DNA of 64,000 nt from a virus (lineage: Duplodnaviria > Caudoviricetes). Positions 28,543 to 51,218 of this stretch are shown one piece after another (position 1 is the stretch's first letter; each line of letters begins with the position of its first letter). The position numbers were made by a program, and so were the translations under genes. The notes below the pieces were generated by a model. That model made no database searches and was not told the DNA's origin. It saw nothing but the letters and a program-made list of their open reading frames with translations. The stretch spans positions 417 through 64,416 of IMG/VR virus record IMGVR_UViG_3300042876_000250; one strand, given 5' to 3'.

Positions 28543-30663
28543 ATGATTAACGTCAACCAGATCACCTCCACGCTGGCCAAGCTGCCGGATCAGGCGTTGC
28601 AGCAGTATGCTGCAATGCACAAAAACGACCCGTACATCATGGCCCTGGCCGTGGCCGAGTCCAACCGCCGCAAAGAGATGCGCGGTGCCGCTCAAGCAGC
28701 GCAGGGCCAGATGGAGCAGCCCAAGGTGGCTGACCAAGCGATTGCCGCGATGGCTCCCGCTCCTGCCCCGCAGGCCCCCGCTCCGCAGGAAATGCTGCCC
28801 GAGGAGCAAGGCATCGGCCGACTGCCCGCAGGCGACATGAACTTTGCCGATGGCGGCATCGTGGCGTTTGCACGCGGCGGGGATATGCCCAAGCGCGACG
28901 AATTTGAGCAGGCGCTGGATTCGGAGGGTGTCACCGATCCACGGGAGCGGGCGTTCCTCAAAGCGCTGTATGCCCAAGAGTCGAGCAGCGGGAAGAACAC
29001 GAAGACTTCTAATCGTGGCGCTCGTGGGCCCATGCAGATTCTTCCCAGCACGTTCAAGGAAGTGGCCGACGAGGGCATGGACATCAACAACAAGATGGAC
29101 AACCTGCGCGCAGGCATCCGTTACGGCCGTCAAGGCTTTCGTGCAGCAGGGGGAGACCCGGTGCTAGGAGGCGCGTATTACTACGGCGGCCCTGGCGGCA
29201 TGGAGAAAGCGCGGGCTGGTGTTGCTGTTGCTGACCCGCAAAATCCGAAAGCGCCCAACACACTCCAGTACGGCGAGTCGATTGCATCGCGCATGACCAA
29301 GCTGCTGCCAATCGGCTCGGCGGTTGCGGCTGAACAGCGTTCTGCTGCTCCGGCAAAGTCTGCGGTTGACCTGATTCCCGGGCAGGATGGCCGCCCCGTT
29401 GCGCTTGACTCCAAAGCCGGGCCGCCTGTTACTGGCAACGAGATCGTCAAAGGCACCGCCAAAACTGCGGCGGCCCTGGGTTGGAACACTGCGGCTATGC
29501 CGCTTGCAGGACTTGCCACGCTGGGCAGGCGTATGTTTGGTGACAAAGATGCCAAGTTCGAGGACATCTACGGCGGCATGACGTACTCGCCTGATGATCG
29601 CGTGTCGCGTGAGCAGCTTGAAACAGTTGGGCGCGTTGCGCAGGACTTGAAGATTCCTCCGTACATTCCCGTCATTGGCGGCCTGCCCGGAACTCGCGGC
29701 ACCCCGTCGGCGGCAGACGCTGCGGCCATCGCCAAGACCCAGAACCTGCGCCTCGGCAACAACCCCACGCCAACTGGCGTGAGTGCTCGGCAAGCAGCCG
29801 TGTTGGAGAGAAGCCAAGCCGCCCGCACCGCAGCGCAGCAAGCCGCCATGCAGACCGACGAAGCTGCGGCGGCTGCGGCTCGCGGGCGTATTGCCGATTC
29901 GGCCATGGCCAACGCCGGGGCCCGTGCAGCAAACGAAGCGCTCCCCGGTGTAACCAACCGTGCAGGCTTGGCGGGCATCGCTGGGGCTGGCGTCAGCACC
30001 GCGCTGGACAACCCCGACCCCACCGGCATCGCGGCCGTCAATCCCGAAGACGGTTCCTACGACCGCCTGGAGCGCAATCGTCTGAAAGATCGCTCGTTCA
30101 ACACGGCTGAGTCGCTGCCCACCGAGGTCAAAAAGGACGTCGTGGACGCCGCCAAAGCGGTTACTCCCGAGAAAAAAGGACGCGGCCTGACCGGCGAAGA
30201 CTGGCTGATGCTGGGTCTGGGCATGATGCAGAGCAAGTCTCCGCGCTTCCTGTCGGCGCTGGGAGAAGCAGGTCTTGGTGCCATGAAAGCACGCCAAGAG
30301 CGCTTCAAAGAAGAACGGGAAGCCGCAGCCGACGAAGCGCGCAGCAAGTATCTTTCTGCCATGGGCGACTACTCGGCAGCGCAGGCGGAAGAATTGCGCG
30401 GGGGCGGTCGTAAAACGAATATGGCCATGGATATGGTCAACAAGTACTACGACAACTGGTTGCAGACGGAGAAGGCGAACCCGCTGAACGCCATGGGCAT
30501 CAACCCGCAAAAAGCCAACGCGGCGTACCAGCAGATTTTGCAAAATGTCTTCGGTGCGTATAACATTCCGGTACCTACAGGCATGGGCTCTGTGGGGGCG
30601 GGTGGCTCCGCACAACTTACTCCCTCCGATCTCGCACTGATTGGCAGGTACACCGCAAGGTAG
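28543..30663 (+). CDS. Internal virion protein with SLT lytic transglycosylase domain
   Basis: QESS (catalytic Glu), GARGPMQILPST, NLRAGIRY, YYGGPG. Confidence 0.8.
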   Translation: MINVNQITSTLAKLPDQALQQYAAMHKNDPYIMALAVAESNRRKEMRGAAQAAQGQMEQPKVADQAIAAMAPAPAPQAPAPQEMLPEEQGIGRLPAGDMNFADGGIVAFARGGDMPKRDEFEQALDSEGVTDPRERAFLKALYAQESSSGKNTKTSNRGARGPMQILPSTFKEVADEGMDINNKMDNLRAGIRYGRQGFRAAGGDPVLGGAYYYGGPGGMEKARAGVAVADPQNPKAPNTLQYGESIASRMTKLLPIGSAVAAEQRSAAPAKSAVDLIPGQDGRPVALDSKAGPPVTGNEIVKGTAKTAAALGWNTAAMPLAGLATLGRRMFGDKDAKFEDIYGGMTYSPDDRVSREQLETVGRVAQDLKIPPYIPVIGGLPGTRGTPSAADAAAIAKTQNLRLGNNPTPTGVSARQAAVLERSQAARTAAQQAAMQTDEAAAAAARGRIADSAMANAGARAANEALPGVTNRAGLAGIAGAGVSTALDNPDPTGIAAVNPEDGSYDRLERNRLKDRSFNTAESLPTEVKKDVVDAAKAVTPEKKGRGLTGEDWLMLGLGMMQSKSPRFLSALGEAGLGAMKARQERFKEEREAAADEARSKYLSAMGDYSAAQAEELRGGGRKTNMAMDMVNKYYDNWLQTEKANPLNAMGINPQKANAAYQQILQNVFGAYNIPVPTGMGSVGAGGSAQLTPSDLALIGRYTAR

Positions 30664-30667
30664 CAAA

Positions 30668-33600
30668 ATGGAACTCAGTCAAGTCCTTCAAGCACTCCGT
30701 AACGCAGACGCCGCAGGCGACAAGGAGGCAGCAAGAAGGCTGGCTGAGATTGCCAGGGAAATGGCGGGCGTTGAGCCCCCGGCACCGGAGAAGAAAAGCT
30801 CCGGTGTTCTGGCATCTGCGGCCAAGGGCATCGAGGCCCTCATTTCTTCTGGCCGTACAGCAGCAGGCGCGATCACCGGGGACGCCAACGAAGCTGCCCG
30901 CGCCGCACTTGAGCGCAGCGCCAGCATGGAGCGCCGCTATGCGGACGATGTAAGTCTTGAAAAGGTTAAGCAGGCTTACGAGCAGCGAGGTCTGCTGCCT
31001 GCGGCGGGCGAGGCCATCAGCCAGATTCCAAAAGCTCTGGCTGAACAGGCACCCAACATTGCGGCCACCCTTGGCAGCGCCCGTCTTGGCGCGATGGCAG
31101 GCGCTCCGTTCGGCCCTGTTGGTGCGATTGTTGGGGGTACCGCAGGCGCGGTTGCGCCCGGTTTGGCTCAGATGTTCGGCTCCAACGTTGAGCGCCAAGC
31201 TGCTGAACAGCAACGTGCCGGGCAGCCCATCAACGTCGATGTGGGCGCAGCAGGAGCTGCCGCAGTCCCGCAAGCCGCGCTTGACGCCGCCGCCACTTTC
31301 ATCCCCCTTGGCGGACGCATCGTCAGCAAAGTTACCGGCATCTCCCTGGAGTCACTTGGCACGCGCACTGCTGCTGAGACCGCCAAGCTGGCAGAAGAAC
31401 GGCTGTTGGCGGTGCTGGCCAAGGGCGGGGCAAAAGGTATTGCCGCCGAGGTGCCGACGGAAGTTGCCCAGCAAATGCTGGAGCGCGCGCAGGCAGGGCT
31501 GTCGCTGACATCGCCCGAAGCCCTTCAAGAGTACGGCGAGACCGCATATCAAGTGTCGCTGCTTGCACCGTTGGGCGCAGCCGGTCGTATCTCCGAACGT
31601 AGTGGCGCTCGCCAAGAAGTTGCCAAGCAGCAAGACGCAGAGCGCAAAGCCGCGCAGCAAGCACGCATTCAACAAGAGCGCGTTGCCAAAGAGCAGCAAG
31701 CCCAGGCAGCCGCAGCCGAAGAAGCGCGTCGGCAAACGCCCGGGTACGCGCTGGAAGTGCAAGCCAAATATCAAGCGCTTGAGGGTCGGGCCGCAGAGCT
31801 GCGTGGGCAACTCCGCGAAGTGAAGAAGGACTCTCCCACGGCTACGGCAGACGCGGAGTTCAACAAAGACATCAAGGCCCAGCTCAAACAGCTTGGCAAA
31901 GAGTTGAGTGAAACCGCGAAAGAATACAACCGCGTTCGGCCTGTCCTGACATCCATGACTGCGCAGCAAGCGCAGGCCCAGGCAGCGCAGCAAGCCGCTG
32001 CGGAGGAGTATCAGAAGCGGCAGCAACAAGCCTACGCTGACCAAGAGCAGCAGTACCAACTGCAAGCCATGCGGCAGCAGATGGAGCAAACGCCGGGCTA
32101 CCAGCAGCAGATTCCTGGCCTTGCCCCCATGGAGACCGAGGGCGCGCCGCAAACAACGACGCCGATGCCTGACACGGCGGCGCAGGCGCGGGAGTTTGCA
32201 GCCAAGCAGCAAGAGATGGCGCAGCTCTTGGAGAATGCCCAGGAGCAAGAGTCCGAAGCCGCAGGTCGCGGTGACATCGACTCGCTCAAAGCCCTGCGCC
32301 AGCGCAGGCAGATGCTCCAGAACGAGTACGAGTACGTCTCCAAACAACTCGCTGCACTGGGTGGTGTCCCGGCAAACGACGCCGAGAGTCTTCAAAACAA
32401 GATTGCTTCGCTGCAAGAAAAGCTCAAGGCGATGGCAGGGCCCGGCTACGACCCGGCCAAGGCTGACAAGATCATCGACCAGATCGACTCCTTGCAGAAG
32501 CAACTCAAAGAGCTGGGGCTTCCTGAGAGAGCAGGCGTGCAGCAGCGCCTTGACTACGGCCCGGCCAACCAGACGCAGAAGATTGCCACCTGGGAAGAAG
32601 CCGGACGCCAAGAGCTTGGCCGCCGCGACGAAGACCTCAAGCGCCAGACTGGCCAGCAGGACGGTTTTGACTTTGGTGAGTTTGACGAGCAGACCCGCGA
32701 ACTGGATAAGCAGCGCAGGGAAGGCTTTACTGCCGCAGAAATTGCGGCGATGGAACGCGCTCGGTTGGACACCTCGCGTACTGCACAAGGCACCCTGTTT
32801 GGTGAAGAGGCGAAAGAAGGGATCGAGACCGGGATCGGAAGCCAGAAGTCCCGTCAACAACTGGTCAACGATCTGCGTCTTGCCCGCGCTGCGCGCAACG
32901 CCCAGCCGGATCGCCGTGCCGGGGGCACCCAAGCCGTCAGCCAAGCACTGGAGGCACTGCGCGACTATGACGCCCGCGTTGCGGCTGAACAAGAGCGTGG
33001 CACCTCCAAGCTGGGAGAGATTGACGAAGACACCCAGAAGGCGCTGGCCGGAGCGGCCGTGCCCGAACGCGAGAAGGCGGTGCAGTCTGCGCGTGAACTG
33101 CGCGACGGTGCATATGCAGACATCGTTGACATGGTGTCCCGCTCCGACCGGGGCCGTTCGTTTACGAATCAGATTGCCGCTGCGCAGCAAAAGCTCGTGG
33201 ACTTCTCGATCAAGGAAGCCGAGTTCCGTCGCGGTGAGGCTCTGACCGCTGAAGAGAAGCAACAGCTAACCGCCAAGATTTACGAGACTGTCCGTGAGCT
33301 ACGTGGCCGCATGGGCGACACCCGCAACATCGTCAACGTTGGCACCAAAGATGAGCCGCGTTACGTTGACGCTGCATACACCACGGAGGGCGGTGCTGGC
33401 ACTGGCCCAACTGGCATGGGGCTGGCCAACATTGAGAGTCGCGCTCCTGGCCAGCGTACGTTTGCCAACACGTTTGCCGCAATCAAGTCGCTGCAAGAAG
33501 GTCTGGATCGCGCCATCAGTGGTTCGGCCAAACGTCGCACCGGATCGGTAGAGACCACCATCACCCCCGAGAAGACATCCGCGCAAATGCTGGCGCGGGA

Positions 33601-36600
33601 GTTGGAGAAGGCTTCGCGCAACCCAGATGTGCCTGCCGAAGCCCGGGATTTGATCGACCAGATCGCAGACAACGCCAAGCTGATCGCCACGCGGCAAGAG
33701 CTGCTGGATGACGCCACGCGATTCGTGTACCGTGCAAATAACGGGGACTTCGACGCACTCTTGGCCCGTGATGTGCGGGAGGGCATGGCAGGATTCGAGC
33801 AAGGCAAGCGCTCGGAGACTGAGGCTGAAACTGAGATGGCTCCGGCCGGGCGGGTGCAGCCTAAAGGTACGGCCGCGCCTGTCACCACCTACGCGCAGCG
33901 AGCCACGGGTGTTACGCGAATTGCCGAGCAGCGTGACATGTTCCCTGACGTGCAACTGCAAGGACTTGTGTTTGGTACGTCGCCGGAGTTTCAGCGGTTC
34001 ATGGGCAGCGACGCCCTGGACACGATGCGCCGCCTCAAGGGTATTCCTGGCGAGACCGCCGCTCGCACGCTCAACCGCCTCAAACCGCTGGAAGCGCAGA
34101 TCAACCGTTACGAGCAGCAGATGGCTGCGCTGCGGCAGCAGTACGAGAAGGCCAAAGCGCAAAGCGCTGAGGCAGCGGCGCTGGCTCCCGAAGCCCAAGA
34201 AGCCCTGCGTAAAGCCGTCGCCCTGCGCACGCAGATGGGCGTCAAGATCGAGCAAAGGCTCGCCGCTGTCGAGGCCGACTACATCCGCGCCAGCCTGAAG
34301 TACAACTTCACCAGCAGCGTCATTGACGATCTGACCTCCATGATCTCAAAGAACGTGGAGAAGTTCAGCAGCCCCTTGGACGGTCTGGCAAAGCGGTACT
34401 TGAAAGAGATTGCAGACGCTGAACAACCTGCGGCCAAATTGCGCGCCGAGGTGATGGACAGGATTCGTACGGCCATCATCATGATGCGTGACTCGCAGTA
34501 CACGCCTGAACAGTTTGTTGCGGCTGCACAAAAAGGCACGCGCCCCGCCACTGCGTACAAAGCGCTGGCAGGAATGCCCAAGCAAATGCAGTACACGCCG
34601 AAACAAATTGGCCACCTGCTTGGGTTGTCGGACGCTGCTGTAGACAAACTGAAAGCGTACGCGGAAGAGGCTGCGCTCAAGAAAGACATCTATGTGCAGC
34701 GCCAAGCTGCTTGGATGTCGGATGCCCGCGTTATTGCTGCGCTGGACGAGCACCTGAAGCTGACGATGCAGCTTCGGGAAGAAGAGCGGCAGATCAACAA
34801 GCTCGGCAAAGAGTTGATGAATGCGTCACTGGCTGTGCGAGAAGCGCGCAGCATGCTGGAAGACGACCCCCGGGTCAAAGCGCGTTACGCCCGCCAAGAA
34901 GAACTGGCCGCAAAAGCACTGGCCGATCTTGAGGCCGCACGGGAAATCCTGGGCGAGACCGATGCAACTGTTCGCGCTATCTCCGCGCAGATCAACGCAC
35001 TGGCCGACAAACAGGACAAACTCAAGCGCGTTGTCAGTGGCACCCAGAAACAGGTGGCTGCCAAGGCGGCCGAACGTGTTGTGCCCGAGGGCGTTACCGC
35101 CGAGACGCAAGGGGATCGTGAAGCCAAAGATGCCGAAGCCCGCAAGGCGGAGCAGGAAGCGCTTGAGCGCCGAGCCGACGACGTAAATCGCAAGCTGGTG
35201 TCGTTTGAGCCGAAGCGTCAGCAGGAACAAAAGCGCATCCGCAACGCGAAGGAAATTCTGGATTTGCAGGAGCAAGCTGCCACGGCTGCCGATCCGCAAG
35301 AACGTACCGCCGCGCAGAAGCAGCTTACGGCTTTCATGGACGAGTTGTACAAAACGTCTATGGGCGCGGCCAAGAAGCTGCAAGGTAGCATCAATGCGCA
35401 GGCAAAGCTGATTAAGCAAATTCAGAAAAGCGATGCCGCACTGGAAGACCCCAAGCTGGGCAAGAAAGCGCGTGCAGAAGAGCAGGCCAACAACGCCGCG
35501 CTGCGTGAAAAACTGAAAGCGCTGAGTGCCAAGATCAACAAGCAGCTTGGTTCTGTGCAGGAAGACATTCCGACCCGCGCCGACATCAAAGCCGAGCGCG
35601 AGGAGCAGTATCAGCGCGAGACCGCTGAAAAGTTGCAGTCGCTTGAAGAAGAGGGCAAGACCGAACGCCTGCCCGCCCGGCAAGTAGGCCCTGTTGTGAA
35701 GAAGACGGTGCAGGCTGGCACCGTGCGTACCGGCGAGCTTTCAACTACCGAAGAACGCAAAGTCGGCATGCGCAACACGCCGACGCAAGCTGGTGCCCCG
35801 CGCAGCTTGACTGGTAAACAAGCGCAGGTTGCCGCTGCCAAAGATGTTGAAGTTGAGCAGTTGCTGCTGCGCGAATCCAACCTGTCCGATTTGAAGGAAC
35901 GTGTTGAGGCTGCACTGGAGAAAGCGCAGGAGTCTGGCAACGAGGCGCAAATTGCAGGACGCCAAGACCAGCTTTCCCGCGTGGAAAAAGAACTTGCCAA
36001 GACCCAGCGCAAGCTGGAGAGCCTGGGCAAAACGCCAAAGCCACGCAAGCAAAAGACTATTGCCGCCGTCGAAGACCTCTACAACGAGCTTGGCGACGCC
36101 AAATTCCAGCTTGCAGCAACGGCCACGCAAGGCCCCAAGGTTGCCGTGGAGCCGGAGTCGAACGCCGCCAATGTGATGGACGAGATCACGGCCACCAGTA
36201 CCAACCCGCTTAACCGCGCTGTGGCTGAGCGGCTGCGCACGCTGCTGGGCAACACCAAGATCAAACTGGTGCGGGACTTGCGCGACGACAAAGGCAACCC
36301 GGTATACGGCAGCGCCAAGGTGGACGGCTCCGAGATTTCTCTGGACTTGCAGTACGGCACCAATGAACAGACAGTGCTGCACGAGGGTGTGCACGCGGCG
36401 ATTGAGCGCGCTTTGCGCCTGCCCGAAGACAAGCTCACCGACGACCAGCGCGCGGCCAAGCGCGAACTGGAGGAGTTGTTCAAGGCGTACAAGGCTGACA
36501 AGACAGCGCCCAACGCAAACGCCAAGCAAGACATCAGCGAGTTTGTCGCCGAGGCGCTGTCAGACGCCGAACTGCAAAGCTACTTGGCGTCCAAGAAGTG

Positions 36601-39322
36601 GACGCTCAAGAACATGTGGAACGCCGTGAAGAATGGCATCTTGCGCATGATCGGCGTCGAGGTGCCCACCAACATGCGCGACGCCACCCTGGCCGCAGCA
36701 GACCGCCTGATGATGCGCGTGATGCGCCCGACGGCGGCCGACCAAAACCTTTTGGTGCCGTCACTCAACCGCCCTCGGTTGAACGAGTCTCTGCGCAGCA
36801 GCATCGAGGTGGCCGACAAGCTCATTGCCAAGGAGCGGCCGTGGGCAGACCGCGTGCTGGCCGAGAACTCTGGCCTGTCTTTCGCCACGCGCTACGTTGA
36901 CCGCTTCGCCGGGTTCGAGCGGCTGGCCAAGCAAATGGGCGACCTCGAAGGCACCCAGATGCTGTACTACCTGCGCATGTACGACCAGCGCATGAACTTC
37001 GTGGCGCAGTCGGCAGGTAACGGGGCACTGGCCCTGGTCAAGAAAGAGCGCCGCGACGGCAGCTTCGAGTACCTGATTGAGAGCCAGGAAGGCGCAAGCC
37101 TGCGAACGGTAGTGGAGACCTTGAAAGAGGCGACCCCCATGGTTGGCGATGTCGATGCTGTAAACCGCCTGTTTACGACGTATCTGGCTGCCGAGCGTGC
37201 ACGCCGCGTGGGGTTCGACAAGCTGAACTTTGGTGGCAGCGTTACGGAAGCAGAACTCAGGAACGCCGTGGCCGAGATCAACAGCGTCGAGGGGCTGAAG
37301 GATGTGTTTGACCGCGCCCGCCGCGAGTACAACGACTACAACGAAGGCCTCGTTCGCTTCGCCCAACAGACAGGCGCGCTGAGTAAAGAACTTGCGGACA
37401 AACTTCTTGCCAGCAAAGACTACATCCCGTACTACCGCCAGACCAAAGATGGCGGCGTGGATTTGGTGATTGGTGGTGAAGCGCCCATCCGCATCGGCAG
37501 CATCAAGGAGCAGCCATACCTGCAAGAGCTTGTTGGCGGCGACGAGCCGATCTTTGACTTCTTCAAGGCCTCGGTGCAGAACACCAACCTCATGGTGGAT
37601 ATGGCGCTGCGCAATCTCTCCACCAAAAACGCCATGATCGAACTGGCCGAACTTGGTGGCGCGACCATCACCAAGTCGCAGATCATCGGCAACGACGTTG
37701 TGAAGTTCAAGGTGGATGGCGAAGACCGCTACGCTCGCGTAGACACCGACATGTTTGGCGTGCCCGCCGAAGTTCTGGTCAAGGGCATGGAAGGCATCCC
37801 CATGCAGCTTACGGGCGTCATGCGGATTGCGTCGATGCCTGCTATGCTGTTGCGCAGGGCCGTGACGCTCTCGCCGCTTTACGTTGCTCGCCAGTTGTTC
37901 CGCGACTCGTTGGCTGCTCCTATCCTGTCCGGCGCAGATTTCACCCCCGTGCTTGGCGCGCTGCGGGAGATCAACCGCCCCAGCGGCAAAACTCTTGAGC
38001 AACGCGGCATCACTGGCGGCCAGTACTTCACCGGCACGCAAGAAGACCTGTCTCGCATCATGCGAGAGATCGCAGACGGCAAACCCGGATGGGCCAAAGC
38101 GCTGGGCAAGCTGGAGTCTTTCGGCATGCAGGCTGACGCCCTGACCCGCCGCGCGCAGTACAACAGCTACATCAAACAGGGCCTGTCGGAGATGGAGGCC
38201 ACGCTGCTCTCGCTGGAGTCTATGAACTTCAACAAGCGCGGTGCTTCTCCCAGCATCCACATGGCCAACTCGCTGATCCCGTTCTTCAACGCCCAGATTC
38301 AGGGCTTGAATGTGTTGTACCGGGCGCTTACGGGTAAAGCCACGCAGGCTGAGAAAGTGCGGTTGCAGTCCAAGCTGCTCACCCGTGGCGCTCTGCTGTT
38401 TGCCGTTTCTCTGGCCTACGCCGCGTCGATGCAGGACGACGAGGCCTACAAGAACGCCATGCCCGATCAGAAGTACGGCAACTGGTTCATTCGGATTCCC
38501 GGTGTTGATGAGCCGGTCAAGTTGCCCGTCCCGTTCGAGGTCGGCTACATCTTCAAGGCGCTGCCCGAGGCGCTGTACAACATGGCAGTCAACGGCGAGC
38601 GCGGCAAAGAGGAAGCAGGCGATGCGTTCATGGGCATCCTGCGCAACGTAATCCCAGGCGGTTCGTCGTTCCTCATTCCGCAGATCGCCAAGCCCGCCAT
38701 CGAGGCGGGGCTGGGCAAGTCGTTCTACACCGGCCGAGACATTCTGTCCGCACGGGAGGCCAAGCTGCGCCCCGAGGAGCAGTTCCGCGACAGCACCAGC
38801 GAGATCGCCAAGTCTCTTGGGGCAGCTTTCGGCATCTCGCCCATCAAGATTGAAGAACTCATCAAGGGCTATACGGGTACGCTGGGGTTGGCGGTTCTGC
38901 AAATGGGCAACCTGGGTTTTGATACCTCGGAGTCTCCGGCCAAGGCAATGAAGCGCTTGTCCGACATGCCTGTGGTGGGTGGTGCATTCCAGCCCAACGA
39001 CGCTGGCTACATCATCAACAGCACCTACGACAAGCTCAAGGATGCGGAGGCGGTGAAGAACTCCGTTGACAGCCTGATTCAGCGCGGTGAAAAAGCCAAA
39101 GCCATGGCGCTGATTCAGGAGAAGGCCAACGAGTACGCGCAGAGCGGGTTGAGCACTTGGTACGGAAACGCAATCTCGCAACTGACCAAGTACGAGACCG
39201 CCATCAAAGCGTCCGACATGAGCCCCGAAGAAAAGCGCAGGCGGCTTGATGAAGCGCGGCAGATGAAGATCAGGTTGGCTACGTCCGTGCGGGAGGCGGC
39301 AGATAGAACCACACCCCAATGA
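30668..39322 (+). CDS. Giant polyvalent ejection protein, 2,884 aa (coiled coils, zincin MPTase-like domain, LPD38-like C-terminus)
   Basis: LHEGVHAA plus SEFVAEALS; C-terminal IPFFNAQIQG, PVPFEVG, KSFYTGRDI, SPIKIE.LIKGYTG. Confidence 0.85.
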   Translation: MELSQVLQALRNADAAGDKEAARRLAEIAREMAGVEPPAPEKKSSGVLASAAKGIEALISSGRTAAGAITGDANEAARAALERSASMERRYADDVSLEKVKQAYEQRGLLPAAGEAISQIPKALAEQAPNIAATLGSARLGAMAGAPFGPVGAIVGGTAGAVAPGLAQMFGSNVERQAAEQQRAGQPINVDVGAAGAAAVPQAALDAAATFIPLGGRIVSKVTGISLESLGTRTAAETAKLAEERLLAVLAKGGAKGIAAEVPTEVAQQMLERAQAGLSLTSPEALQEYGETAYQVSLLAPLGAAGRISERSGARQEVAKQQDAERKAAQQARIQQERVAKEQQAQAAAAEEARRQTPGYALEVQAKYQALEGRAAELRGQLREVKKDSPTATADAEFNKDIKAQLKQLGKELSETAKEYNRVRPVLTSMTAQQAQAQAAQQAAAEEYQKRQQQAYADQEQQYQLQAMRQQMEQTPGYQQQIPGLAPMETEGAPQTTTPMPDTAAQAREFAAKQQEMAQLLENAQEQESEAAGRGDIDSLKALRQRRQMLQNEYEYVSKQLAALGGVPANDAESLQNKIASLQEKLKAMAGPGYDPAKADKIIDQIDSLQKQLKELGLPERAGVQQRLDYGPANQTQKIATWEEAGRQELGRRDEDLKRQTGQQDGFDFGEFDEQTRELDKQRREGFTAAEIAAMERARLDTSRTAQGTLFGEEAKEGIETGIGSQKSRQQLVNDLRLARAARNAQPDRRAGGTQAVSQALEALRDYDARVAAEQERGTSKLGEIDEDTQKALAGAAVPEREKAVQSARELRDGAYADIVDMVSRSDRGRSFTNQIAAAQQKLVDFSIKEAEFRRGEALTAEEKQQLTAKIYETVRELRGRMGDTRNIVNVGTKDEPRYVDAAYTTEGGAGTGPTGMGLANIESRAPGQRTFANTFAAIKSLQEGLDRAISGSAKRRTGSVETTITPEKTSAQMLARELEKASRNPDVPAEARDLIDQIADNAKLIATRQELLDDATRFVYRANNGDFDALLARDVREGMAGFEQGKRSETEAETEMAPAGRVQPKGTAAPVTTYAQRATGVTRIAEQRDMFPDVQLQGLVFGTSPEFQRFMGSDALDTMRRLKGIPGETAARTLNRLKPLEAQINRYEQQMAALRQQYEKAKAQSAEAAALAPEAQEALRKAVALRTQMGVKIEQRLAAVEADYIRASLKYNFTSSVIDDLTSMISKNVEKFSSPLDGLAKRYLKEIADAEQPAAKLRAEVMDRIRTAIIMMRDSQYTPEQFVAAAQKGTRPATAYKALAGMPKQMQYTPKQIGHLLGLSDAAVDKLKAYAEEAALKKDIYVQRQAAWMSDARVIAALDEHLKLTMQLREEERQINKLGKELMNASLAVREARSMLEDDPRVKARYARQEELAAKALADLEAAREILGETDATVRAISAQINALADKQDKLKRVVSGTQKQVAAKAAERVVPEGVTAETQGDREAKDAEARKAEQEALERRADDVNRKLVSFEPKRQQEQKRIRNAKEILDLQEQAATAADPQERTAAQKQLTAFMDELYKTSMGAAKKLQGSINAQAKLIKQIQKSDAALEDPKLGKKARAEEQANNAALREKLKALSAKINKQLGSVQEDIPTRADIKAEREEQYQRETAEKLQSLEEEGKTERLPARQVGPVVKKTVQAGTVRTGELSTTEERKVGMRNTPTQAGAPRSLTGKQAQVAAAKDVEVEQLLLRESNLSDLKERVEAALEKAQESGNEAQIAGRQDQLSRVEKELAKTQRKLESLGKTPKPRKQKTIAAVEDLYNELGDAKFQLAATATQGPKVAVEPESNAANVMDEITATSTNPLNRAVAERLRTLLGNTKIKLVRDLRDDKGNPVYGSAKVDGSEISLDLQYGTNEQTVLHEGVHAAIERALRLPEDKLTDDQRAAKRELEELFKAYKADKTAPNANAKQDISEFVAEALSDAELQSYLASKKWTLKNMWNAVKNGILRMIGVEVPTNMRDATLAAADRLMMRVMRPTAADQNLLVPSLNRPRLNESLRSSIEVADKLIAKERPWADRVLAENSGLSFATRYVDRFAGFERLAKQMGDLEGTQMLYYLRMYDQRMNFVAQSAGNGALALVKKERRDGSFEYLIESQEGASLRTVVETLKEATPMVGDVDAVNRLFTTYLAAERARRVGFDKLNFGGSVTEAELRNAVAEINSVEGLKDVFDRARREYNDYNEGLVRFAQQTGALSKELADKLLASKDYIPYYRQTKDGGVDLVIGGEAPIRIGSIKEQPYLQELVGGDEPIFDFFKASVQNTNLMVDMALRNLSTKNAMIELAELGGATITKSQIIGNDVVKFKVDGEDRYARVDTDMFGVPAEVLVKGMEGIPMQLTGVMRIASMPAMLLRRAVTLSPLYVARQLFRDSLAAPILSGADFTPVLGALREINRPSGKTLEQRGITGGQYFTGTQEDLSRIMREIADGKPGWAKALGKLESFGMQADALTRRAQYNSYIKQGLSEMEATLLSLESMNFNKRGASPSIHMANSLIPFFNAQIQGLNVLYRALTGKATQAEKVRLQSKLLTRGALLFAVSLAYAASMQDDEAYKNAMPDQKYGNWFIRIPGVDEPVKLPVPFEVGYIFKALPEALYNMAVNGERGKEEAGDAFMGILRNVIPGGSSFLIPQIAKPAIEAGLGKSFYTGRDILSAREAKLRPEEQFRDSTSEIAKSLGAAFGISPIKIEELIKGYTGTLGLAVLQMGNLGFDTSESPAKAMKRLSDMPVVGGAFQPNDAGYIINSTYDKLKDAEAVKNSVDSLIQRGEKAKAMALIQEKANEYAQSGLSTWYGNAISQLTKYETAIKASDMSPEEKRRRLDEARQMKIRLATSVREAADRTTPQ

Positions 39323-46589: not shown

Positions 46590-47254
46590 TTAATGTTTGG
46601 GGTTGAACTCGCAACCAGTAACTTGGCACCAGTTGCACAGCGGTGTCTGGGTGGGGTTCCACACACCTGTTTCAAAGCACTGCTCCAGCCGGGCCGTGCG
46701 CTCACGGTACTTCCACCAGATCGCGTCCTTGGCGTCGCGCATCATCTGCATCTTCACCATGGAGTTCTTGACAATGAACATCAGCGCCGAGTTCACCTTG
46801 CGGATGTGCGGGAAGTGCTCGAACACCATCACCGACATCAGCATCAACTGGTCGCGGTCGGGGTACTTGTCGTTGCCGGTCTTGTAGTCCAGACCCAGGC
46901 GGTCAGGTTCTCGTCGTCCAGAATCAAGAGGTCAGCGATGCCGCGCACCCAGACATCCTTGGCCTTCCACTCCGTGGGCTTGAGGTCAACAGTCAGCGCC
47001 ATCTCGTACTCGGCCAGCTTGCGGCCGGGCTTCTTGAGCAGCGCATCGGCCACCTCTTGGAACTGCTTGAACTCAGGCGGCAGCGGCTTGCCATCACGCA
47101 CGTAGAACTCCAGCGCTTCGTGCACCCGATTGCCGTAACGCGTTTGCTCCGTCTCTTGGAACGGGTACTTCTTGAGCACCTTGACCTCGTGGTAGCGGCG
47201 GGCGCAGCCTTCAAAGTCTTTCAGCGAGGAGTGTGACCAAGCGGGTTTTTTCAT
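46590..47254 (-). pseudogene. PD-(D/E)XK (Cas4/RecB-like) exonuclease interrupted by a 1-nt frameshift at ~46891
   Basis: WSHSSL..FEGC, RGIADLL, then DYKTG..YPD.DQL and LCNWC....C in the next frame. Confidence 0.8.
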
Positions 47255-47731: not shown

Positions 47732-49702
47732 CTAGTTCTTGGCATTGCCATATCTACGGTGAGCGCCACCGTCAGCGGCCAGGGGAATCCCCGGCATATA
47801 GCTCGGCTCCATGGTCATCTGCGCCAAGACCCAAGTCTTAGCGTGTGCCACTTCGTCGTCAGGCACGACGGCAATCAGCTCGTCATGCACGGTGCCTGCT
47901 ATGGGGTACTTCTTGTTCACCCGCAGCATCCCGTCCGTCATCACGATCCTGGCGGTGCCCTGCACCACGTTGTTCGTGATCTTGCCAGGGTACAGCTTGG
48001 TCTCGTCCTCGCCATACACCCAGTTCATGCCGCCCGTCTCTTTGTCCTTGACCTGACGCAGGTTCGGGTACAACAGCTTCATGCCGTTGGGCAGCACGAT
48101 CTCTTCCTTGCGGAAGGTCAAACATTTATACACGACCTCCTTGCCGCCTGCAAGACTCTTGACCAACAAATCACCCATCGCCTCCCAGAATGACACGACA
48201 GGCCACGCAGTGGCACGGTACTTGTCGATGATCTTCTTGGCCGCCACGCAGTGCGTGAGCAGCTCCTCGTCGGTGCAGGTGTGGGGAATCTCCAGCATCT
48301 TCTTGATGTAGTCGTCGTTGTTCAGGAACGTCTCCACGTAAGCCCGGCCAACGCCCAACTTCTTGGCAAACTCCCGGTCATAGCGCACGGGCGGTGCGCC
48401 CAGAAAGCCAACGAGTAGCTGCGCCGCGAAGCTCGCCCAGCCCAGGCCGTACCCGCACCCCAGCAGCGCACTCTTGGCGCTCTGCCGCAGGTCTGGGTGG
48501 CTCTCCTTGGTCATGCCGGGTATGCCGAACATCTGGGAGCCGAACTGCGCGTACGCGTCCTGGCCCGAGCGGAAGATGTCCAGCAGCTCCTCGTAGTCCG
48601 ACAGCCACGCCAGCACCCGGGGCTCGATCTGGGAGAGGTCGCCCACCACAAGCTGGTGTCCCTCGGGGGCCATGATCGCCTTGCGCAGGAAGCTGCCGCG
48701 CTTCAAGTTCTGCATGTTGATGGCGCTCCCCTTGGAGGCAGTCCACCGCCCAGACAGCGCGCCGTAATAACTCAGGGGGACAGGCAGACGGCCGCGCCGG
48801 GAGATGTCGAGGAAGCGCTGCGCGCGCGTGCGCTCGGTCGTTGACTTCACCTTGAGCCGGGCTTCGCAAAGCGCCGCAACGTCTTCGTTGTCACCGTTGA
48901 GAAGCGCCTGGAACAGCGCATCGTTCTTGGCCAAGGCGAGGGTTTCTTTTCCAGTGGCCTTACTCTTCTTTGTAGGAGGCGCGATGCCAAGCCCTTTGAG
49001 GACTTCCGCAAACTGCTTATTTGAAGCAAGCGCAGCTTCATCCACGCCGATCCTCTGTAGAAGTCCTTCACGCTTTTCCTTTTCCTCGGCCAGCGCCTTC
49101 TCCAACATCTCGCTGTCCAGCTCCAGCAGCGGGCGCACGTACATGCGCAGGGTCATGTCGATGAGGCGCAGTTCACTCTTGGGGTAGCCCTGGCTCAGTC
49201 GCCGAAAGATTTCTTCGCAGAGGAAGACATCGTGAGCGCAATAATCCGCAAGTTCTCTTTCAATTTGTTCTGGGAGTACCTCAAGTCCGTCCGTCGAATG
49301 AACGGCTTGTCCTTTGGGGGGAAGGCCGTAATCTCTTGCGAGGTCTTCGAGGCGATTGCCAGCCCCCACGCCGCGCAAAGCTCTTGCCATTGATAGCGTG
49401 TCGAAGATGAACGCGGGAACAACTCCGTACTCCCATGCGAGAATTGAGACATCGAACTGTGCGTTGTGTGCAAGCACGGCAGTTCGTCCCCAGTCGATTC
49501 CAGAAAGGTACTGAGGTAGGTCGCATCCTCGTACCCACAGAACTGGGTCATCGCTTCCAAGCTCGTGGAAGCAGCATCCGAAAGCAGTGAAACGGGGGTC
49601 ACGTATGTACTCCTCGGTGGTCATCTTCGACAGCGTGTAGTCGGCCTTCGACCAGCGCGTCTCAAAATCTACGGCAATGATGCGGTCAAACGGGGCGCTC
49701 AT
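47732..49702 (-). CDS. polA: DNA polymerase family A with 3'-5' exonuclease
   Basis: DFET, AHNAQFD, YC..D; DLSQIEPR, RQSAK...G..YG, TVHDE. Confidence 0.95.
   Translation of the reverse strand: MSAPFDRIIAVDFETRWSKADYTLSKMTTEEYIRDPRFTAFGCCFHELGSDDPVLWVRGCDLPQYLSGIDWGRTAVLAHNAQFDVSILAWEYGVVPAFIFDTLSMARALRGVGAGNRLEDLARDYGLPPKGQAVHSTDGLEVLPEQIERELADYCAHDVFLCEEIFRRLSQGYPKSELRLIDMTLRMYVRPLLELDSEMLEKALAEEKEKREGLLQRIGVDEAALASNKQFAEVLKGLGIAPPTKKSKATGKETLALAKNDALFQALLNGDNEDVAALCEARLKVKSTTERTRAQRFLDISRRGRLPVPLSYYGALSGRWTASKGSAINMQNLKRGSFLRKAIMAPEGHQLVVGDLSQIEPRVLAWLSDYEELLDIFRSGQDAYAQFGSQMFGIPGMTKESHPDLRQSAKSALLGCGYGLGWASFAAQLLVGFLGAPPVRYDREFAKKLGVGRAYVETFLNNDDYIKKMLEIPHTCTDEELLTHCVAAKKIIDKYRATAWPVVSFWEAMGDLLVKSLAGGKEVVYKCLTFRKEEIVLPNGMKLLYPNLRQVKDKETGGMNWVYGEDETKLYPGKITNNVVQGTARIVMTDGMLRVNKKYPIAGTVHDELIAVVPDDEVAHAKTWVLAQMTMEPSYMPGIPLAADGGAHRRYGNAKN
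48125..48153 (-). promoter_or_regulatory. Internal sigma70-like promoter in polA
   Basis: TTGCAG-17-TATAAA. Confidence 0.45.
48847..49071 (-). CDS. Candidate overprinted 74-aa basic ORF in the +1 frame of polA
   Basis: GAGGAAAAGGAAAAGC-GTG; A/T-ending polA codons begin at this start. Confidence 0.4.
   Translation of the reverse strand: MKDFYRGSAWMKLRLLQISSLRKSSKGLASRLLQRRVRPLEKKPSPWPRTMRCSRRFSTVTTKTLRRFAKPGSR
49195..49602 (-). CDS. Candidate overprinted 135-aa ORF in the +1 frame of polA
   Basis: GAGGAG-7nt-GTG; polA GC3 collapses over this same interval. Confidence 0.55.
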   Translation of the reverse strand: MTPVSLLSDAASTSLEAMTQFCGYEDATYLSTFLESTGDELPCLHTTHSSMSQFSHGSTELFPRSSSTRYQWQELCAAWGLAIASKTSQEITAFPPKDKPFIRRTDLRYSQNKLKENLRIIALTMSSSAKKSFGD

Positions 49703-49826: not shown

Positions 49827-50114
49827 TCAATTAAGCCTCCCATGGTCTGGCTGCGCGGCGCGGATCAGCTCGTCGTGGAACGGCATGGCGTTGTGCAGCA
49901 GACCGTGAGCTTCGTACTCGTTGGCGTTCATGCGGACGATGGACTGCCCTTCTTCGTCGGCCAGCACCATAACGCCGCGCACCTTGGAGTCGTTGCGGTA
50001 GAGCTTGGAAAGCAGCGGCAGCAGCGTCAGGAAGGCGTTGCGCTCGGTCTCGCCCATGTATTTCACGTCTTCTTCGAGTGCGCTCACGCACTCGTCCAGC
50101 AGTTTCTGGTTCAT
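49827..50114 (-). CDS. Hypothetical protein
   Basis: AAGGAG SD; ATGA-coupled. Confidence 0.7.
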   Translation of the reverse strand: MNQKLLDECVSALEEDVKYMGETERNAFLTLLPLLSKLYRNDSKVRGVMVLADEEGQSIVRMNANEYEAHGLLHNAMPFHDELIRAAQPDHGRLN

Positions 50115-50404
50115 TGGGACTCCTTCAAAAGCAGTGGCAAGCCACCGATGTTGTTCTCGTTGATGACTACGGCGTGGCCTCCGCATTCCTTGATCCTTGC
50201 AATGTGCGCCTCTTGCAGCGCAGTCGTTGTGCCCTTGCCAGCCTTGGCCTCAATGGCCAGGAACTTGCCGCGCACGCAGCACAGAAAGTCCGGCACGCCA
50301 GAGTTACCGTAGCCGGTACCAATCGGCATGGCGTAGTACACGCCATGCTCGTCCAAGATTTTTCTGATCTTGGCTTTCACTTTAGCTTCTGGAGTTGATG
50401 CCAT
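50111..50404 (-). CDS. VRR-NUC nuclease / putative Holliday junction resolvase
   Basis: PEAKVK, GVPDFL, FLAIEAK, TALQ. Confidence 0.9.
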   Translation of the reverse strand: MASTPEAKVKAKIRKILDEHGVYYAMPIGTGYGNSGVPDFLCCVRGKFLAIEAKAGKGTTTALQEAHIARIKECGGHAVVINENNIGGLPLLLKESQ

Positions 50405-50778
50405 ATGTCTCGAAAATATCTTGCGGGGACTTCGCGTTCCTCGCTTTGGAAAAACATCTCTGCGTCATAGCGCTGCGCAAACTCGTCGAGTTCATCACCC
50501 GAGAAGAATTTGAACTGGCCCTCGTCTTCGACCAGCACACCGCGCCTGCGCAGCACCTCGTACATGTGGGCTTTGGCTGCGTACCGCATGGCGGTATTTC
50601 TCGTATCGCCCAATTCGCGCTGGAGTGAAGCAAGCCTTTCGCGCAGTTCGTACTGCTCATAGTTCATGCGAACCATCTTGGCATGTGCTTCGATTACCTT
50701 CGCAGCGTCTTGCTCTTGCTGGGTCAGCGGCCTTTGCTGCGCCAGCTCAAGCGGTTTCTTTTTCCATTGTGCTTTCAT
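50377..50778 (-). CDS. Hypothetical coiled-coil protein
   Basis: AAGGAG SD directly downstream of a structured element. Confidence 0.7.
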   Translation of the reverse strand: MKAQWKKKPLELAQQRPLTQQEQDAAKVIEAHAKMVRMNYEQYELRERLASLQRELGDTRNTAMRYAAKAHMYEVLRRRGVLVEDEGQFKFFSGDELDEFAQRYDAEMFFQSEEREVPARYFRDIWHQLQKLK

Positions 50779-50792
50779 CTTGCGCTCCTTGT

Positions 50793-50936
50793 GTTGGGGT
50801 AGGGGGTCATGTAGATTCAGCGCCCCCTGTCGCTGTGAGGAGAACGGTGCGGGTGGAACATCTCACTGCTGCCGACCCCGGCCCGCACCGGGCAAAACGT
50901 GTTCGCATCTACAAGGCTTGCACGCGTTGCCCCAAC
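50793..50936 (-). ncRNA. Candidate structured RNA with kissing-loop pseudoknot
   Basis: Closing stem plus three hairpins; loops UGUAGAU and AUCUACA are complementary. Confidence 0.55.
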
Positions 50937-50962
50937 CAATCCTGTCGGCATTGGTGTTCTTA

Positions 50963-51163
50963 TCAGTACGGCGCTTCAGGCAGCGCCGCGAATTCTTTTT
51001 TCTTCAGCAGTCTTTCGATCTGCTCCAGCTTCTCCGGGTCGGCCTTCTCGAAGGGCCACCACTTGCCGGTCTGAATTTTTTCTGCGAGTTGTTGCGATGA
51101 GCACTTCCGCAGTCTTAAACCTGTGCTCGTTTCCGCAGACTCTGGTTCGGATGTTGTTCTCAT
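50963..51163 (-). CDS. Hypothetical protein overlapping the Zn-ribbon ORF
   Basis: ATGA-coupled to 51160-51534; TGKWWPFEK..EAPY. Confidence 0.45.
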   Translation of the reverse strand: MRTTSEPESAETSTGLRLRKCSSQQLAEKIQTGKWWPFEKADPEKLEQIERLLKKKEFAALPEAPY

Positions 51164-51218
51164 TTTGCTTTCTTGTCTCGACCACCATCGTCCACGCTCC
51201 GCACTCGGGGCACTTCAT
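50976..51218 (-). CDS. NrdR-N-like Zn-ribbon protein
   Basis: MKCPECG..T.V.ETR....RTRVC...HRFKT.E. Confidence 0.7.
   Translation of the reverse strand: MKCPECGAWTMVVETRKQNENNIRTRVCGNEHRFKTAEVLIATTRRKNSDRQVVALREGRPGEAGADRKTAEEKRIRGAA

What the first reader, a model, noticed from the sequence alone, without database searches (positions are those of the whole stretch)
50779..50960. ~145-nt multi-stem RNA with kissing loops directly upstream of an SD
Seen (+ coordinates): closing stem 50793-50799/50930-50936 (7 bp); hairpin A 50801-50806/50823-50828; hairpin B 50845-50853/50882-50890 (9 bp); hairpin C 50898-50901/50921-50924. On the transcribed - strand, loop C carries UGUAGAU-GCG and loop A carries CGC-UGA-AUCUACA, giving a 7+3 bp loop-loop helix with a UGA bulge. 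A second cross-pair is possible (50835-50839 with 50862-50866). It is the only long gap in a tightly coupled operon and ends 2 nt before the AAGGAG of gene 50778. Inference: a riboswitch-like or ribozyme-like RNA. It does not match the hammerhead, twister, pistol or HDV consensus as I recall them.
Basis: partly seen in the sequence, partly recalled or inferred. Interest (0 to 1): 0.75.

Follow-up and report, generated by a model that had tools for sequence, protein, structure and literature searches.

The report
New triple-pseudoknot RNA of uncultured phages
A roughly 150-base stretch between two phage genes folds into an intricately knotted RNA that over a hundred uncultured phages keep, with matching base-pair changes, just ahead of their DNA-replication genes; it fits no catalogued RNA family and its job is still unknown.

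Summary
The structure is real. The gap at 50779-50962 (- strand) holds one copy of a conserved RNA family. I found it on 125 other contigs (108 distinct sequences). All but one are uncultured viral contigs.

Over the whole structure, 96.6% of cells are paired against 69.7% in shuffles (0 of 500 shuffles reach it). The loop-loop helix occurs in 19 sequence types.

One is a 5-bp stem that turns hairpin A into an H-type pseudoknot. The other is a 7-13-bp pseudoknot between the 5' flank and the hairpin B loop. His closing stem and his second cross-pair are not conserved, and his GCG/CGC extension is inconclusive.

Rfam 15 gives no match, and I found no description in the papers searched.

The element lies upstream of VRR-NUC and DNA polymerase A genes. 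Polymerase is present in 70 of 72 loci with at least 3 kb downstream. In 20 of 104 loci a promoter, in 15 of them with a terminator, separates the element from the next gene.

Function is unresolved. My best guess is a cis-acting gate at the junction between early and replication genes. A ribozyme or a stand-alone RNA remain live options.

Other first readers in this scan noted the same family on other DNA (e1-6181261, e1-5920451, perhaps e1-6171544).

The parts
50944..50950 (-). PK2 5' strand (UGCCGAC). It begins 12 nt after the upstream ORF's stop codon (TGA, 50963-50965) and pairs with the P3 apical loop.
   Evidence: best flank-to-loop duplex has z below -2 in 61 of 84 distinct copies; own partner -18.0 against other loci's partners -10.5 kcal/mol, 0 of 5000 permutations as low. 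For the window copy alone z is only -0.5.
50891..50931 (-). P2 hairpin. P2a is 50927-50931 with 50891-50895. P2b is 50921-50925 with 50897-50901. The 19-nt loop (50902-50920) carries the conserved CAAGCC...AGAUGYGA.
   Evidence: all 10 pairs have changes on both sides, 90-95% paired. Loop conservation.
50907..50913 (-). PK1 5' strand (UGUAGAU) in the P2 loop.
   Evidence: helix 4: 98.3% paired, 3 covarying and 4 invariant pairs; 19 sequence types.
50845..50890 (-). The stem is 50882-50890 with 50845-50853. The apical loop is variable.
   Evidence: helix 5: 8 of 8 pairs covary, 98.4% paired.
50870..50876 (-). PK2 3' strand (GUCGGCA) inside the P3 loop.
50836..50844 (-). Pyrimidine-rich linker (UUCUCCUCA), complementary to SD-type sequences.
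   Evidence: mean z -1.04, with 22 of 56 below -1.5; no locus-specific covariation; mixed result.
50818..50835 (-). S1. CAGCG (50831-50835) pairs with CGCUG (50818-50822) and encloses the S2 5' strand.
   Evidence: helix 6: 5 of 5 pairs covary, 99.0% paired; 20 distinct 3' strands.
50801..50828 (-). AGGGGG (50823-50828) pairs with CCCCCU (50801-50806). It interleaves with S1 to form an H-type pseudoknot with no nucleotide between the S2 5' strand and the S1 3' strand.
   Evidence: helix 7: 98.8% paired. Variants GUGGG/CCCAC, CCGGGC/GCCCGG and GAGGG/CCCUC.
50810..50816 (-). PK1 3' strand (AUCUACA) in the last loop of the H-type pseudoknot.
50776..50800 (-). Tail with few G before the ribosome site, starting ACC (50798-50800), then SD AAGGAG (50785-50790) and the ATG (50776-50778) of the 133-aa ORF.
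   Evidence: Tail composition. ACC follows S2 in 35 of 83 copies.

Best explanation
Shown: the gap holds one member of an uncatalogued family of 150-165-nt RNAs, read from the gene strand, that a lineage of uncultured phages keeps between the end of an early-type gene and the VRR-NUC nuclease / DNA polymerase A genes.

The fold runs 5' to 3' as follows:
- a 5' strand that pairs with the P3 loop (PK2);
- a two-part hairpin P2 whose large conserved loop pairs with a downstream loop (PK1, the 'kissing' helix);
- a variable hairpin P3;
- a pyrimidine-rich linker;
- an H-type pseudoknot S1/S2 whose last loop supplies the other PK1 strand.

Inferred: it is a cis-acting gate in the polycistronic mRNA. 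The compact folded state, probably stabilised by a ligand or protein that reads the invariant AGAU/AUCU and G5/C5 helices, would set how much of the downstream replication operon is expressed. It could act through translation initiation at the SD 16-31 nt downstream, or through continuity of the transcript.

The upstream ORF usually stops inside or just before the PK2 5' strand. A terminating ribosome would therefore have to melt the fold, which would tie folding to upstream translation.
For: That it is a real RNA family:
- An exact 18-mer from the window occurs on 27 viral contigs.
- Covariance models find it in 22 of 80 loci fetched only by polymerase similarity, and in 98 of 107 new viral loci that match a degenerate pattern.
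- The 84 distinct sequences average 47% identity.
- 96.6% of cells are paired against 69.7% in shuffles; the covariation score is 0.742 against 0.198, reached by 0 of 500 shuffles; slid controls give 35-49%.
- PK1 and S2 were not pairs in the search model, so their counts do not lean on it.
- Many G-U pairs (GU 33 at columns 11/50, GU 28 at 24/36) fix the gene strand as the folded one.

That it acts in cis:
- VRR-NUC lies downstream on the same strand in 98 of 108 copies and polymerase A in 70 of 72 loci with at least 3 kb downstream. Upstream, VRR-NUC was found in 1 of 108 and polymerase in 0 of 50 with at least 3 kb.
- 72 of 104 copies have an SD and start within 50 nt with no promoter or terminator between.
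- Linkers carry SD-complementary CUCC-type runs, stronger in SD-type loci (-7.1) than in promoter/terminator-type loci (-5.6, Mann-Whitney p = 0.024, not corrected for relatedness).
- In relatives without the element, the VRR-NUC start abuts or overlaps the upstream stop (median gap 1 nt, 26 of 38 at 8 nt or less). The element therefore replaces direct translational coupling.
Against: - In 20 of 104 loci a sigma-70-like promoter lies between the element and the next gene, and 15 of these also have an intrinsic terminator-like hairpin. The element is fully conserved there, so it cannot be a leader of the transcript made from that promoter.
- No locus-specific covariation links the linker to its own SD (own -5.38 against other loci's -5.35 kcal/mol; 2228 of 5000 permutations as low).
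- The 10 distinct linkers from loci whose start codon lacks an SD still carry strong CUCC runs.
- No conserved alternative fold was found.
- Only 22 of 80 close relatives carry the element, so it is dispensable.
- There are few conserved unpaired nucleotides.
- No expression or binding data exist.
Confidence: 0.4

Rival explanations
1. It is a self-cleaving ribozyme of a new class, or another RNA-processing signal. It would cut the polycistronic mRNA between the early-type genes and the replication genes, so the two halves get separate stabilities.
For: - The fold is very intricate: an H-type pseudoknot plus two long-range pseudoknots, with invariant helices.
- It is scattered among close relatives, 22 of 80.
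- It works in varied surroundings: before an SD, before a terminator, or before a promoter.
- No neighbouring protein goes with it. The best cluster is present in 7 of 22 loci with the element against 4 of 58 without.
Against: - It matches no known ribozyme model.
- There are few conserved unpaired nucleotides for a catalytic core.
- At 150-165 nt it is larger than most small self-cleaving ribozymes (size comparison recalled, not from a call).
- No cleavage data exist.
Confidence: 0.2
2. It is a self-contained RNA module whose function does not depend on the next gene. It could be a nuclease-resistant or tRNA-like 3' end for the upstream transcript, or a stable RNA processed out of the mRNA that acts in trans, for example by binding a host or defence factor.
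For: - The one constant neighbour relation is to the upstream stop codon. In most copies the stop lies a few to about 20 nt before the model start.
- Of 104 loci, 16 have a terminator-like hairpin within 90 nt after the element; in the clear cases it starts 21-24 nt after.
- S1 and S2 are contiguous (0 nt between strands), which would give a 10-13-bp stack. The next base is A in 63 of 83 copies and the next three are ACC in 35 of 83, followed by a tail with few G. This is reminiscent of a pseudoknotted acceptor arm (resemblance recalled).
Against: - ARAGORN finds no tRNA or tmRNA.
- ACC is present in fewer than half of the copies.
- In 72 of 104 loci there is no terminator and a gene starts 16-45 nt later.
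- No promoter of its own was seen upstream.
- No RNA data exist.
Confidence: 0.2
3. It is a processive antitermination RNA, working like HK022 put. The nascent element would modify the transcribing RNA polymerase so that it reads through terminators into the replication genes.
For: In 15-16 of 104 loci the order is early-type gene, element, intrinsic terminator, then replication genes. This is the order of nutR/putR, tR1 and the replication genes in lambdoid phages (recalled).
Against: - Most loci have no terminator after the element.
- Relatives without the element have no terminator at this junction but directly coupled genes.
- The architecture is unlike the two-hairpin put RNA (recalled).
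- The terminator-bearing loci also have their own promoter downstream.
Confidence: 0.1
4. It is not a functional RNA. The region would be a chance fold, a conserved small protein-coding gene or a DNA-level site.
For: The single-sequence MFE is not unusual (z = -1.24). An AUG in the conserved loop opens short ORFs in many copies.
Against: - Covariation in 29 of 37 pairs.
- P3 varies in length and sequence, and ORFs differ in frame and product.
- G-U pairs are tolerated on one strand only.
Confidence: 0.02

Closest known systems
Pseudoknotted riboswitch aptamers that control translation in bacterial and phage mRNAs (as a class)
   Same: It is a conserved, covarying, pseudoknotted fold on the mRNA strand. 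In 72 of 104 loci it ends 16-45 nt before a start codon with an SD. It has invariant nucleotides inside helices and a pyrimidine run able to pair with an SD.
   Different: It matches no Rfam riboswitch model. No expression platform or alternative fold is demonstrable. A promoter or terminator lies between it and the gene in 20 of 104 loci. It sits between genes and not at a transcript start. No ligand is known.
Autogenous translational operators of phage replication genes (T4 gene 32 pseudoknot, T4/RB69 gene 43 hairpin; gene 32 as described in PMC10690425, passages seen; gene 43 recalled)
   Same: It is an RNA structure just upstream of phage replication genes, including a DNA polymerase operon. 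A pseudoknot is involved.
   Different: It is far larger and more knotted. The gene directly downstream varies (VRR-NUC, unknown small proteins, polymerase). No protein co-occurs with it. There is no sequence or model similarity.
Small self-cleaving ribozymes with double pseudoknots (twister, HDV-like, glmS)
   Same: It has several interlocked pseudoknots, a phage-associated and patchy distribution, and a variable peripheral hairpin.
   Different: The helix order differs: S1/S2 has no nested hairpins where HDV has P3 and P4 (my reading, with HDV topology recalled). No covariance-model match. Catalysis is untested.
HK022 put / lambda nut antitermination sites (recalled)
   Same: It is a cis-acting RNA between an early gene and a terminator that precedes replication genes. 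This arrangement is seen in 15-16 of 104 loci.
   Different: The architecture is unrelated, and most loci have no terminator.
Candidate structured RNAs of IMG/VR viruses (Fremin, Bhatt, Kyrpides 2023, PMC10690425)
   Same: It comes from the same data source and is the same kind of object. The family may be among their 10,006 candidates.
   Different: The main text does not mention 'polymerase' or 'VRR' (find; outline and abstract). The supplementary tables that list the candidates were closed, so prior listing cannot be excluded.

Membership tests
Any Rfam 15 family (includes hammerhead, twister, twister-sister, pistol, hatchet, HDV-like, glmS, known riboswitches, phi29 pRNA) | Match to the family's covariance model | tested here: not met
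   0 matches at gathering score in the window. Only 4 chance-level matches at E up to 10 in 50600-51150, and none covers the fold. 0 matches at E up to 5 in 11 homologous loci.
Self-cleaving ribozyme (any class) | Site-specific self-cleavage | not testable with these tools
   No RNA run was listed. This needs a bench assay.
Riboswitch | Conserved aptamer-like fold supported by covariation | tested here: met
   29 of 37 pairs have changes on both sides, and 0 of 500 shuffles reach the score.
Riboswitch | Lies in the 5' leader of the regulated gene | tested here: inconclusive
   72 of 104 copies are directly before an SD and start. 20 of 104 have a promoter in between. 11 of 104 have a start without an SD.
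Riboswitch | Expression platform with mutually exclusive pairing | tested here: inconclusive
   The linker can pair with the SD, but without locus-specific covariation. No conserved terminator or antiterminator overlap was seen.
Riboswitch | Binds a small ligand | not testable with these tools
   Needs in-line probing or a similar assay.
H-type pseudoknot | Two interleaved helices, each supported on its own | tested here: met
   S1: 5 of 5 pairs covary. S2: 98.8% paired with three variant types.
   helix 4; 13 fully complementary sequence combinations, and 95 of 108 copies pair 7 of 7. Whether the pairing is within one molecule or between two cannot be told.
tRNA / tmRNA / tRNA-like structure | Recognised by a tRNA finder; acceptor-like helix ending in NCCA | tested here: not met
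   ARAGORN finds 0 genes. ACC follows S2 in only 35 of 83 copies.
put-type antiterminator RNA | Precedes a terminator that it overrides | tested here: inconclusive
   A terminator-like hairpin follows in 16 of 104 loci only. Activity is not testable here.

The most novel reading that the evidence does not exclude
This is the founding member of a new class of catalytic or ligand-sensing RNA confined to phage replication modules. For example, it could be a riboswitch that reads a nucleotide-pool or host-immunity signal and times synthesis of the nuclease and DNA polymerase. Alternatively it could be a new self-cleaving ribozyme fold built from three interlocked pseudoknots.
Probability: 0.35. 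Interest if true: 0.92.

Novelty: new variant of a known kind. Interest (0 to 1): 0.8.

Why it matters
Structured RNAs this complex, with covariation this clean and more than 100 distinct members, have usually turned out to be riboswitches, ribozymes or other RNA machines (my own knowledge of the field, not from a call). This one is absent from Rfam 15 and from the papers I could search. It sits at the switch point between early genes and DNA-replication genes of a widespread group of uncultured phages.

It offers four things:
- a well-defined new fold for structural work;
- a testable handle on how these phages time replication;
- a possible new regulatory or catalytic part;
- a sequence marker for this phage lineage in metagenomes.

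The case also shows that a single-sequence energy score (z = -1.24) would have missed it.

Tried and rejected
- **Single-sequence folding.** MFE z = -1.24, not informative. It also mis-pairs the PK2 strand locally.
- **Rfam.** Gathering and E-value modes on the window and on 11 homologous loci gave nothing.
- **tRNA/tmRNA scan.** None found.
- **DNA similarity to deposited phages.** No match.
- **Protein search with the 133-aa downstream ORF in viral contigs.** No match.
- **Cultured relatives.** The best polymerase identity is 32.5%. At E up to 10, the element was absent from the Rhizobium phage RHph_TM3_14A and Pseudomonas phage KPP25 regions. It was also absent from 57 of the 58 polymerase-related loci searched with them. 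The exception is a 22-nt piece cut off at the end of L083, plus four chance-level matches.
- **Closing stem between the 5' and 3' flanks.** Rejected for the family.
Rejected.
Inconclusive.
- **Linker as a locus-specific anti-SD.** No covariation. The group comparison is mixed.
- **Partner protein encoded nearby.** None enriched.
- **Conserved peptide.** None.
- **GC-skew landmark for an origin.** No feature at the element.
- **Bacterial genomes.** It is L234, a 6.5-kb contig binned with a betaproteobacterial MAG. A 29-nt, 18-bit match in L228 was taken as chance.
- **Expression data.** No RNA holder was listed.
- **Literature.** Three searches and two papers found no description. For PMC10690425 I saw the outline, abstract and found passages. 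For PMC12397905 I saw found passages only.
- **Supplements.** The supplements of PMC10690425 were not opened and may list this family.
- **Metagenome-contig scan.** Not used.

Full report
**What the window is.** It is almost the whole of a 64.4-kb viral record rated 99% complete. The finding lies in a - strand block of replication genes. The block holds a DUF927 primase-helicase-like protein, an SNF2 helicase, a PD-(D/E)XK nuclease, family A DNA polymerase (47732-49702), a VRR-NUC-like nuclease (50111-50404), a dATP/dGTP diphosphohydrolase-type protein and an NrdR-type zinc ribbon. The 184-nt gap at 50779-50962 separates a stop codon (50963-50965) from the AAGGAG and ATG of a 133-aa ORF with no family match.

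**Checking the observation in the sequence.** The minimum-energy fold of the gap is not better than shuffles (z = -1.24). The sequence alone therefore proves nothing. Rfam 15 gives no match at gathering score for the window and only four chance-level matches at E up to 10 around the gap. ARAGORN finds no tRNA or tmRNA.

**Relatives.**
Their flanks align into one conserved element.
- To avoid bias from that string, I fetched 80 loci by polymerase similarity alone. I built a covariance model from the window copy with my own structure, searched (39 hits in 99 sources) and rebuilt the model.
- The second model finds full-length copies in 22 of the 80 polymerase loci, plus one cut off at a contig end.
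The model confirms 62 of 70 and 36 of 37 of the new loci.
Only one is a real copy, on a 6.5-kb contig of a betaproteobacterial MAG.
- Altogether there are 126 copies, the window's included, with 108 distinct sequences. The 84 distinct aligned sequences average 47% identity. The window copy is at most 66% identical to any other.

**The fold.** On the 90-row alignment (84 distinct rows) with pseudoknots written in, 96.6% of cells are standard pairs against 69.7% in column shuffles. 29 of 37 pairs change on both sides. The covariation score is 0.742 against 0.198, reached by 0 of 500 shuffles. Sliding the partners by 1-3 columns drops pairing to 35-49%. In detail:
- **P3** (hairpin B): 8 of 8 pairs covary.
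- **S2** (hairpin A, G5/C5): nearly invariant, with three compensated variants.
- **S1 and S2 interleave** with no nucleotide between the S2 5' strand and the S1 3' strand. This is an H-type pseudoknot.
There are 19 sequence types. 95 of 108 copies pair 7 of 7 and 11 pair 6 of 7. PK1 and S2 were not pairs in the search model, so these counts are not fitted.
- **Strand:** frequent G-U pairs show that the gene strand is the folded one.

**A further pseudoknot, PK2.** The 7-13 nt that end 5-9 nt before P2a pair with the 5' part of the P3 apical loop. The paired sequences are unrelated between subfamilies.
- The best flank-to-loop duplex beats shuffled flanks at z below -2 in 61 of 84 distinct copies (median -2.8).
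- A locus's own flank pairs with its own loop at -18.0 kcal/mol on average, against -10.5 for other loci's loops. 0 of 5000 permutations are as low. Relatedness inflates such tests, but the gap is large.
- In the window PK2 is UGCCGAC (50944-50950) with GUCGGCA (50870-50876). For this copy alone z is only -0.5.
- In most loci the upstream ORF's stop codon lies in or next to this 5' strand.

**What the comparative data do not support.**
- His second cross-pair is no better with its own partner than with others.
- His GCG/CGC extension is compatible in 86.9% of cells, but shuffles give 84.9%. Only the middle pair changes on both sides, and it competes with S1. It could at most be an alternative state.
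- No conserved peptide exists. ORFs that start in the element differ in frame, length and product, and P3 varies in length.

**Gene context.**
- The element lies on the gene strand, upstream of a VRR-NUC homologue in 98 of 108 distinct copies. Polymerase A is downstream in 91 of 108, and in 70 of 72 loci with at least 3 kb downstream. Upstream, VRR-NUC was found in 1 of 108 and polymerase in 0 of 50 with at least 3 kb.
- The gene just upstream is a DUF3310 protein in 6 of 10 sampled loci. Elsewhere it is something else. The gene just downstream also varies.
- Of 104 copies with at least 100 nt downstream, 72 are followed within 50 nt by an SD and start, with no promoter or terminator between. 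11 are followed by a start without a recognisable SD. One has an SD and start followed by a terminator-like hairpin 59 nt after the element. 20 are followed by a sigma-70-like promoter before the next gene, and 15 of those have an intrinsic terminator-like hairpin in between (confirmed with the scan tool for L110).
- The window has neither signal near the element on the - strand.
- No protein family within 3.5 kb goes with presence of the element (best 7 of 22 against 4 of 58).
- In relatives that lack it, the VRR-NUC start abuts or overlaps the upstream stop (median gap 1 nt, 26 of 38 at 8 nt or less). The element therefore looks like an optional module placed between two otherwise coupled genes.

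**How it may work.** None of what follows has been shown.
- The steady link to the VRR-NUC/polymerase genes, the usual closeness to an SD, the SD-complementary linker and the replacement of direct coupling favour a cis-acting gate. Its folding would also respond to ribosomes terminating in PK2. I give this 0.4.
- Against it stand the 20 loci with an intervening promoter, the lack of locus-specific linker-SD covariation and the absence of a conserved alternative fold.
- These same facts favour functions that do not depend on context: a new self-cleaving ribozyme or processing signal (0.2), or a stand-alone or 3'-terminal RNA module (0.2). The module might be tRNA-like: S1 and S2 would give a contiguous 10-13-bp stack, followed by A in 63 of 83 copies and ACC in 35 of 83.
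- A put-like antiterminator fits the 15-16 loci where a terminator follows, but not the rest (0.1).
- Covariation cannot tell whether PK1 forms within one molecule or between copies.

**Comparison with what is known.**
- No Rfam 15 model matches the window or 11 homologous loci.
- Three literature searches found no description. One used short sequence strings from the element.
- The catalogue of 10,006 candidate structured RNAs from IMG/VR (PMC10690425; outline, abstract and found passages seen) does not mention polymerase or VRR-NUC in its main text.
- The xrRNA paper PMC12397905 (found passages only) does not mention phages at all.
- No cultured phage is close (polymerase at most 32.5% identical), and the two nearest lack the element.
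- Earlier notes of this scan describe the same family on other genomes. e1-6181261 shares 76 of 76 short words with the L128 copy, and e1-5920451 describes the same helices. e1-6171544 (a tandem pair of about 165 nt ahead of replication genes) may be the same family. I could not check that.

**Verdict.** This is a real, widespread and structurally exceptional phage RNA family with no catalogued relative. Its function awaits experiment.

Noticed in passing
window 50963-51218 (- strand): An NrdR-type zinc-ribbon ORF (51218..50976, Pfam hit) overlaps, in another frame, the 66-aa ORF that ends at 50963. That ORF's C-terminal half resembles the protein ending just before the element in L002/L019-type loci. 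The two frames overlap across a run of six A. L002-type loci show the same pair of overlapping ORFs. This could be two overlapping genes, a programmed frameshift or a sequencing slip. I could not tell which.
   Followed up: partly
window 46706-46843 (- strand): This is a second ORF-free gap of 138 nt in the same operon, between the PD-(D/E)XK nuclease gene and a 251-aa ORF. No - strand promoter-like or terminator-like site was found there. It was not folded or compared.
   Followed up: partly
L110 3771-3860 and the same place in L113, L117, L133, L137, L153, L172, L186, L202, L234, L121, L177: In one subfamily the element is followed by a small covarying hairpin (CCUAACA...UGUUAGG type), an intrinsic terminator, and a near-consensus promoter (TTGACA-17-TACACT with TG) before the next gene.
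   Followed up: partly
L165, L149, L100, L141, L075 and 6 more loci, just after the element: The next gene starts 10-35 nt after the element with no recognisable Shine-Dalgarno sequence. Its leader is C/A-rich with few G.
   Followed up: no
window 30641-39322 (+ strand): This is a 2893-aa ORF whose only Pfam hit is LPD38 (large polyvalent protein-associated domain 38) near the C-terminus.
   Followed up: no
L123, L138, L149, L119 (downstream of the element): In these loci a protein with DUF3310-like sequence motifs lies after the element and before VRR-NUC. In most other loci DUF3310 lies before the element. These downstream proteins were not scanned against Pfam; the DUF3310 hits are for upstream proteins. 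The element's place relative to this gene is therefore not fixed.
   Followed up: no
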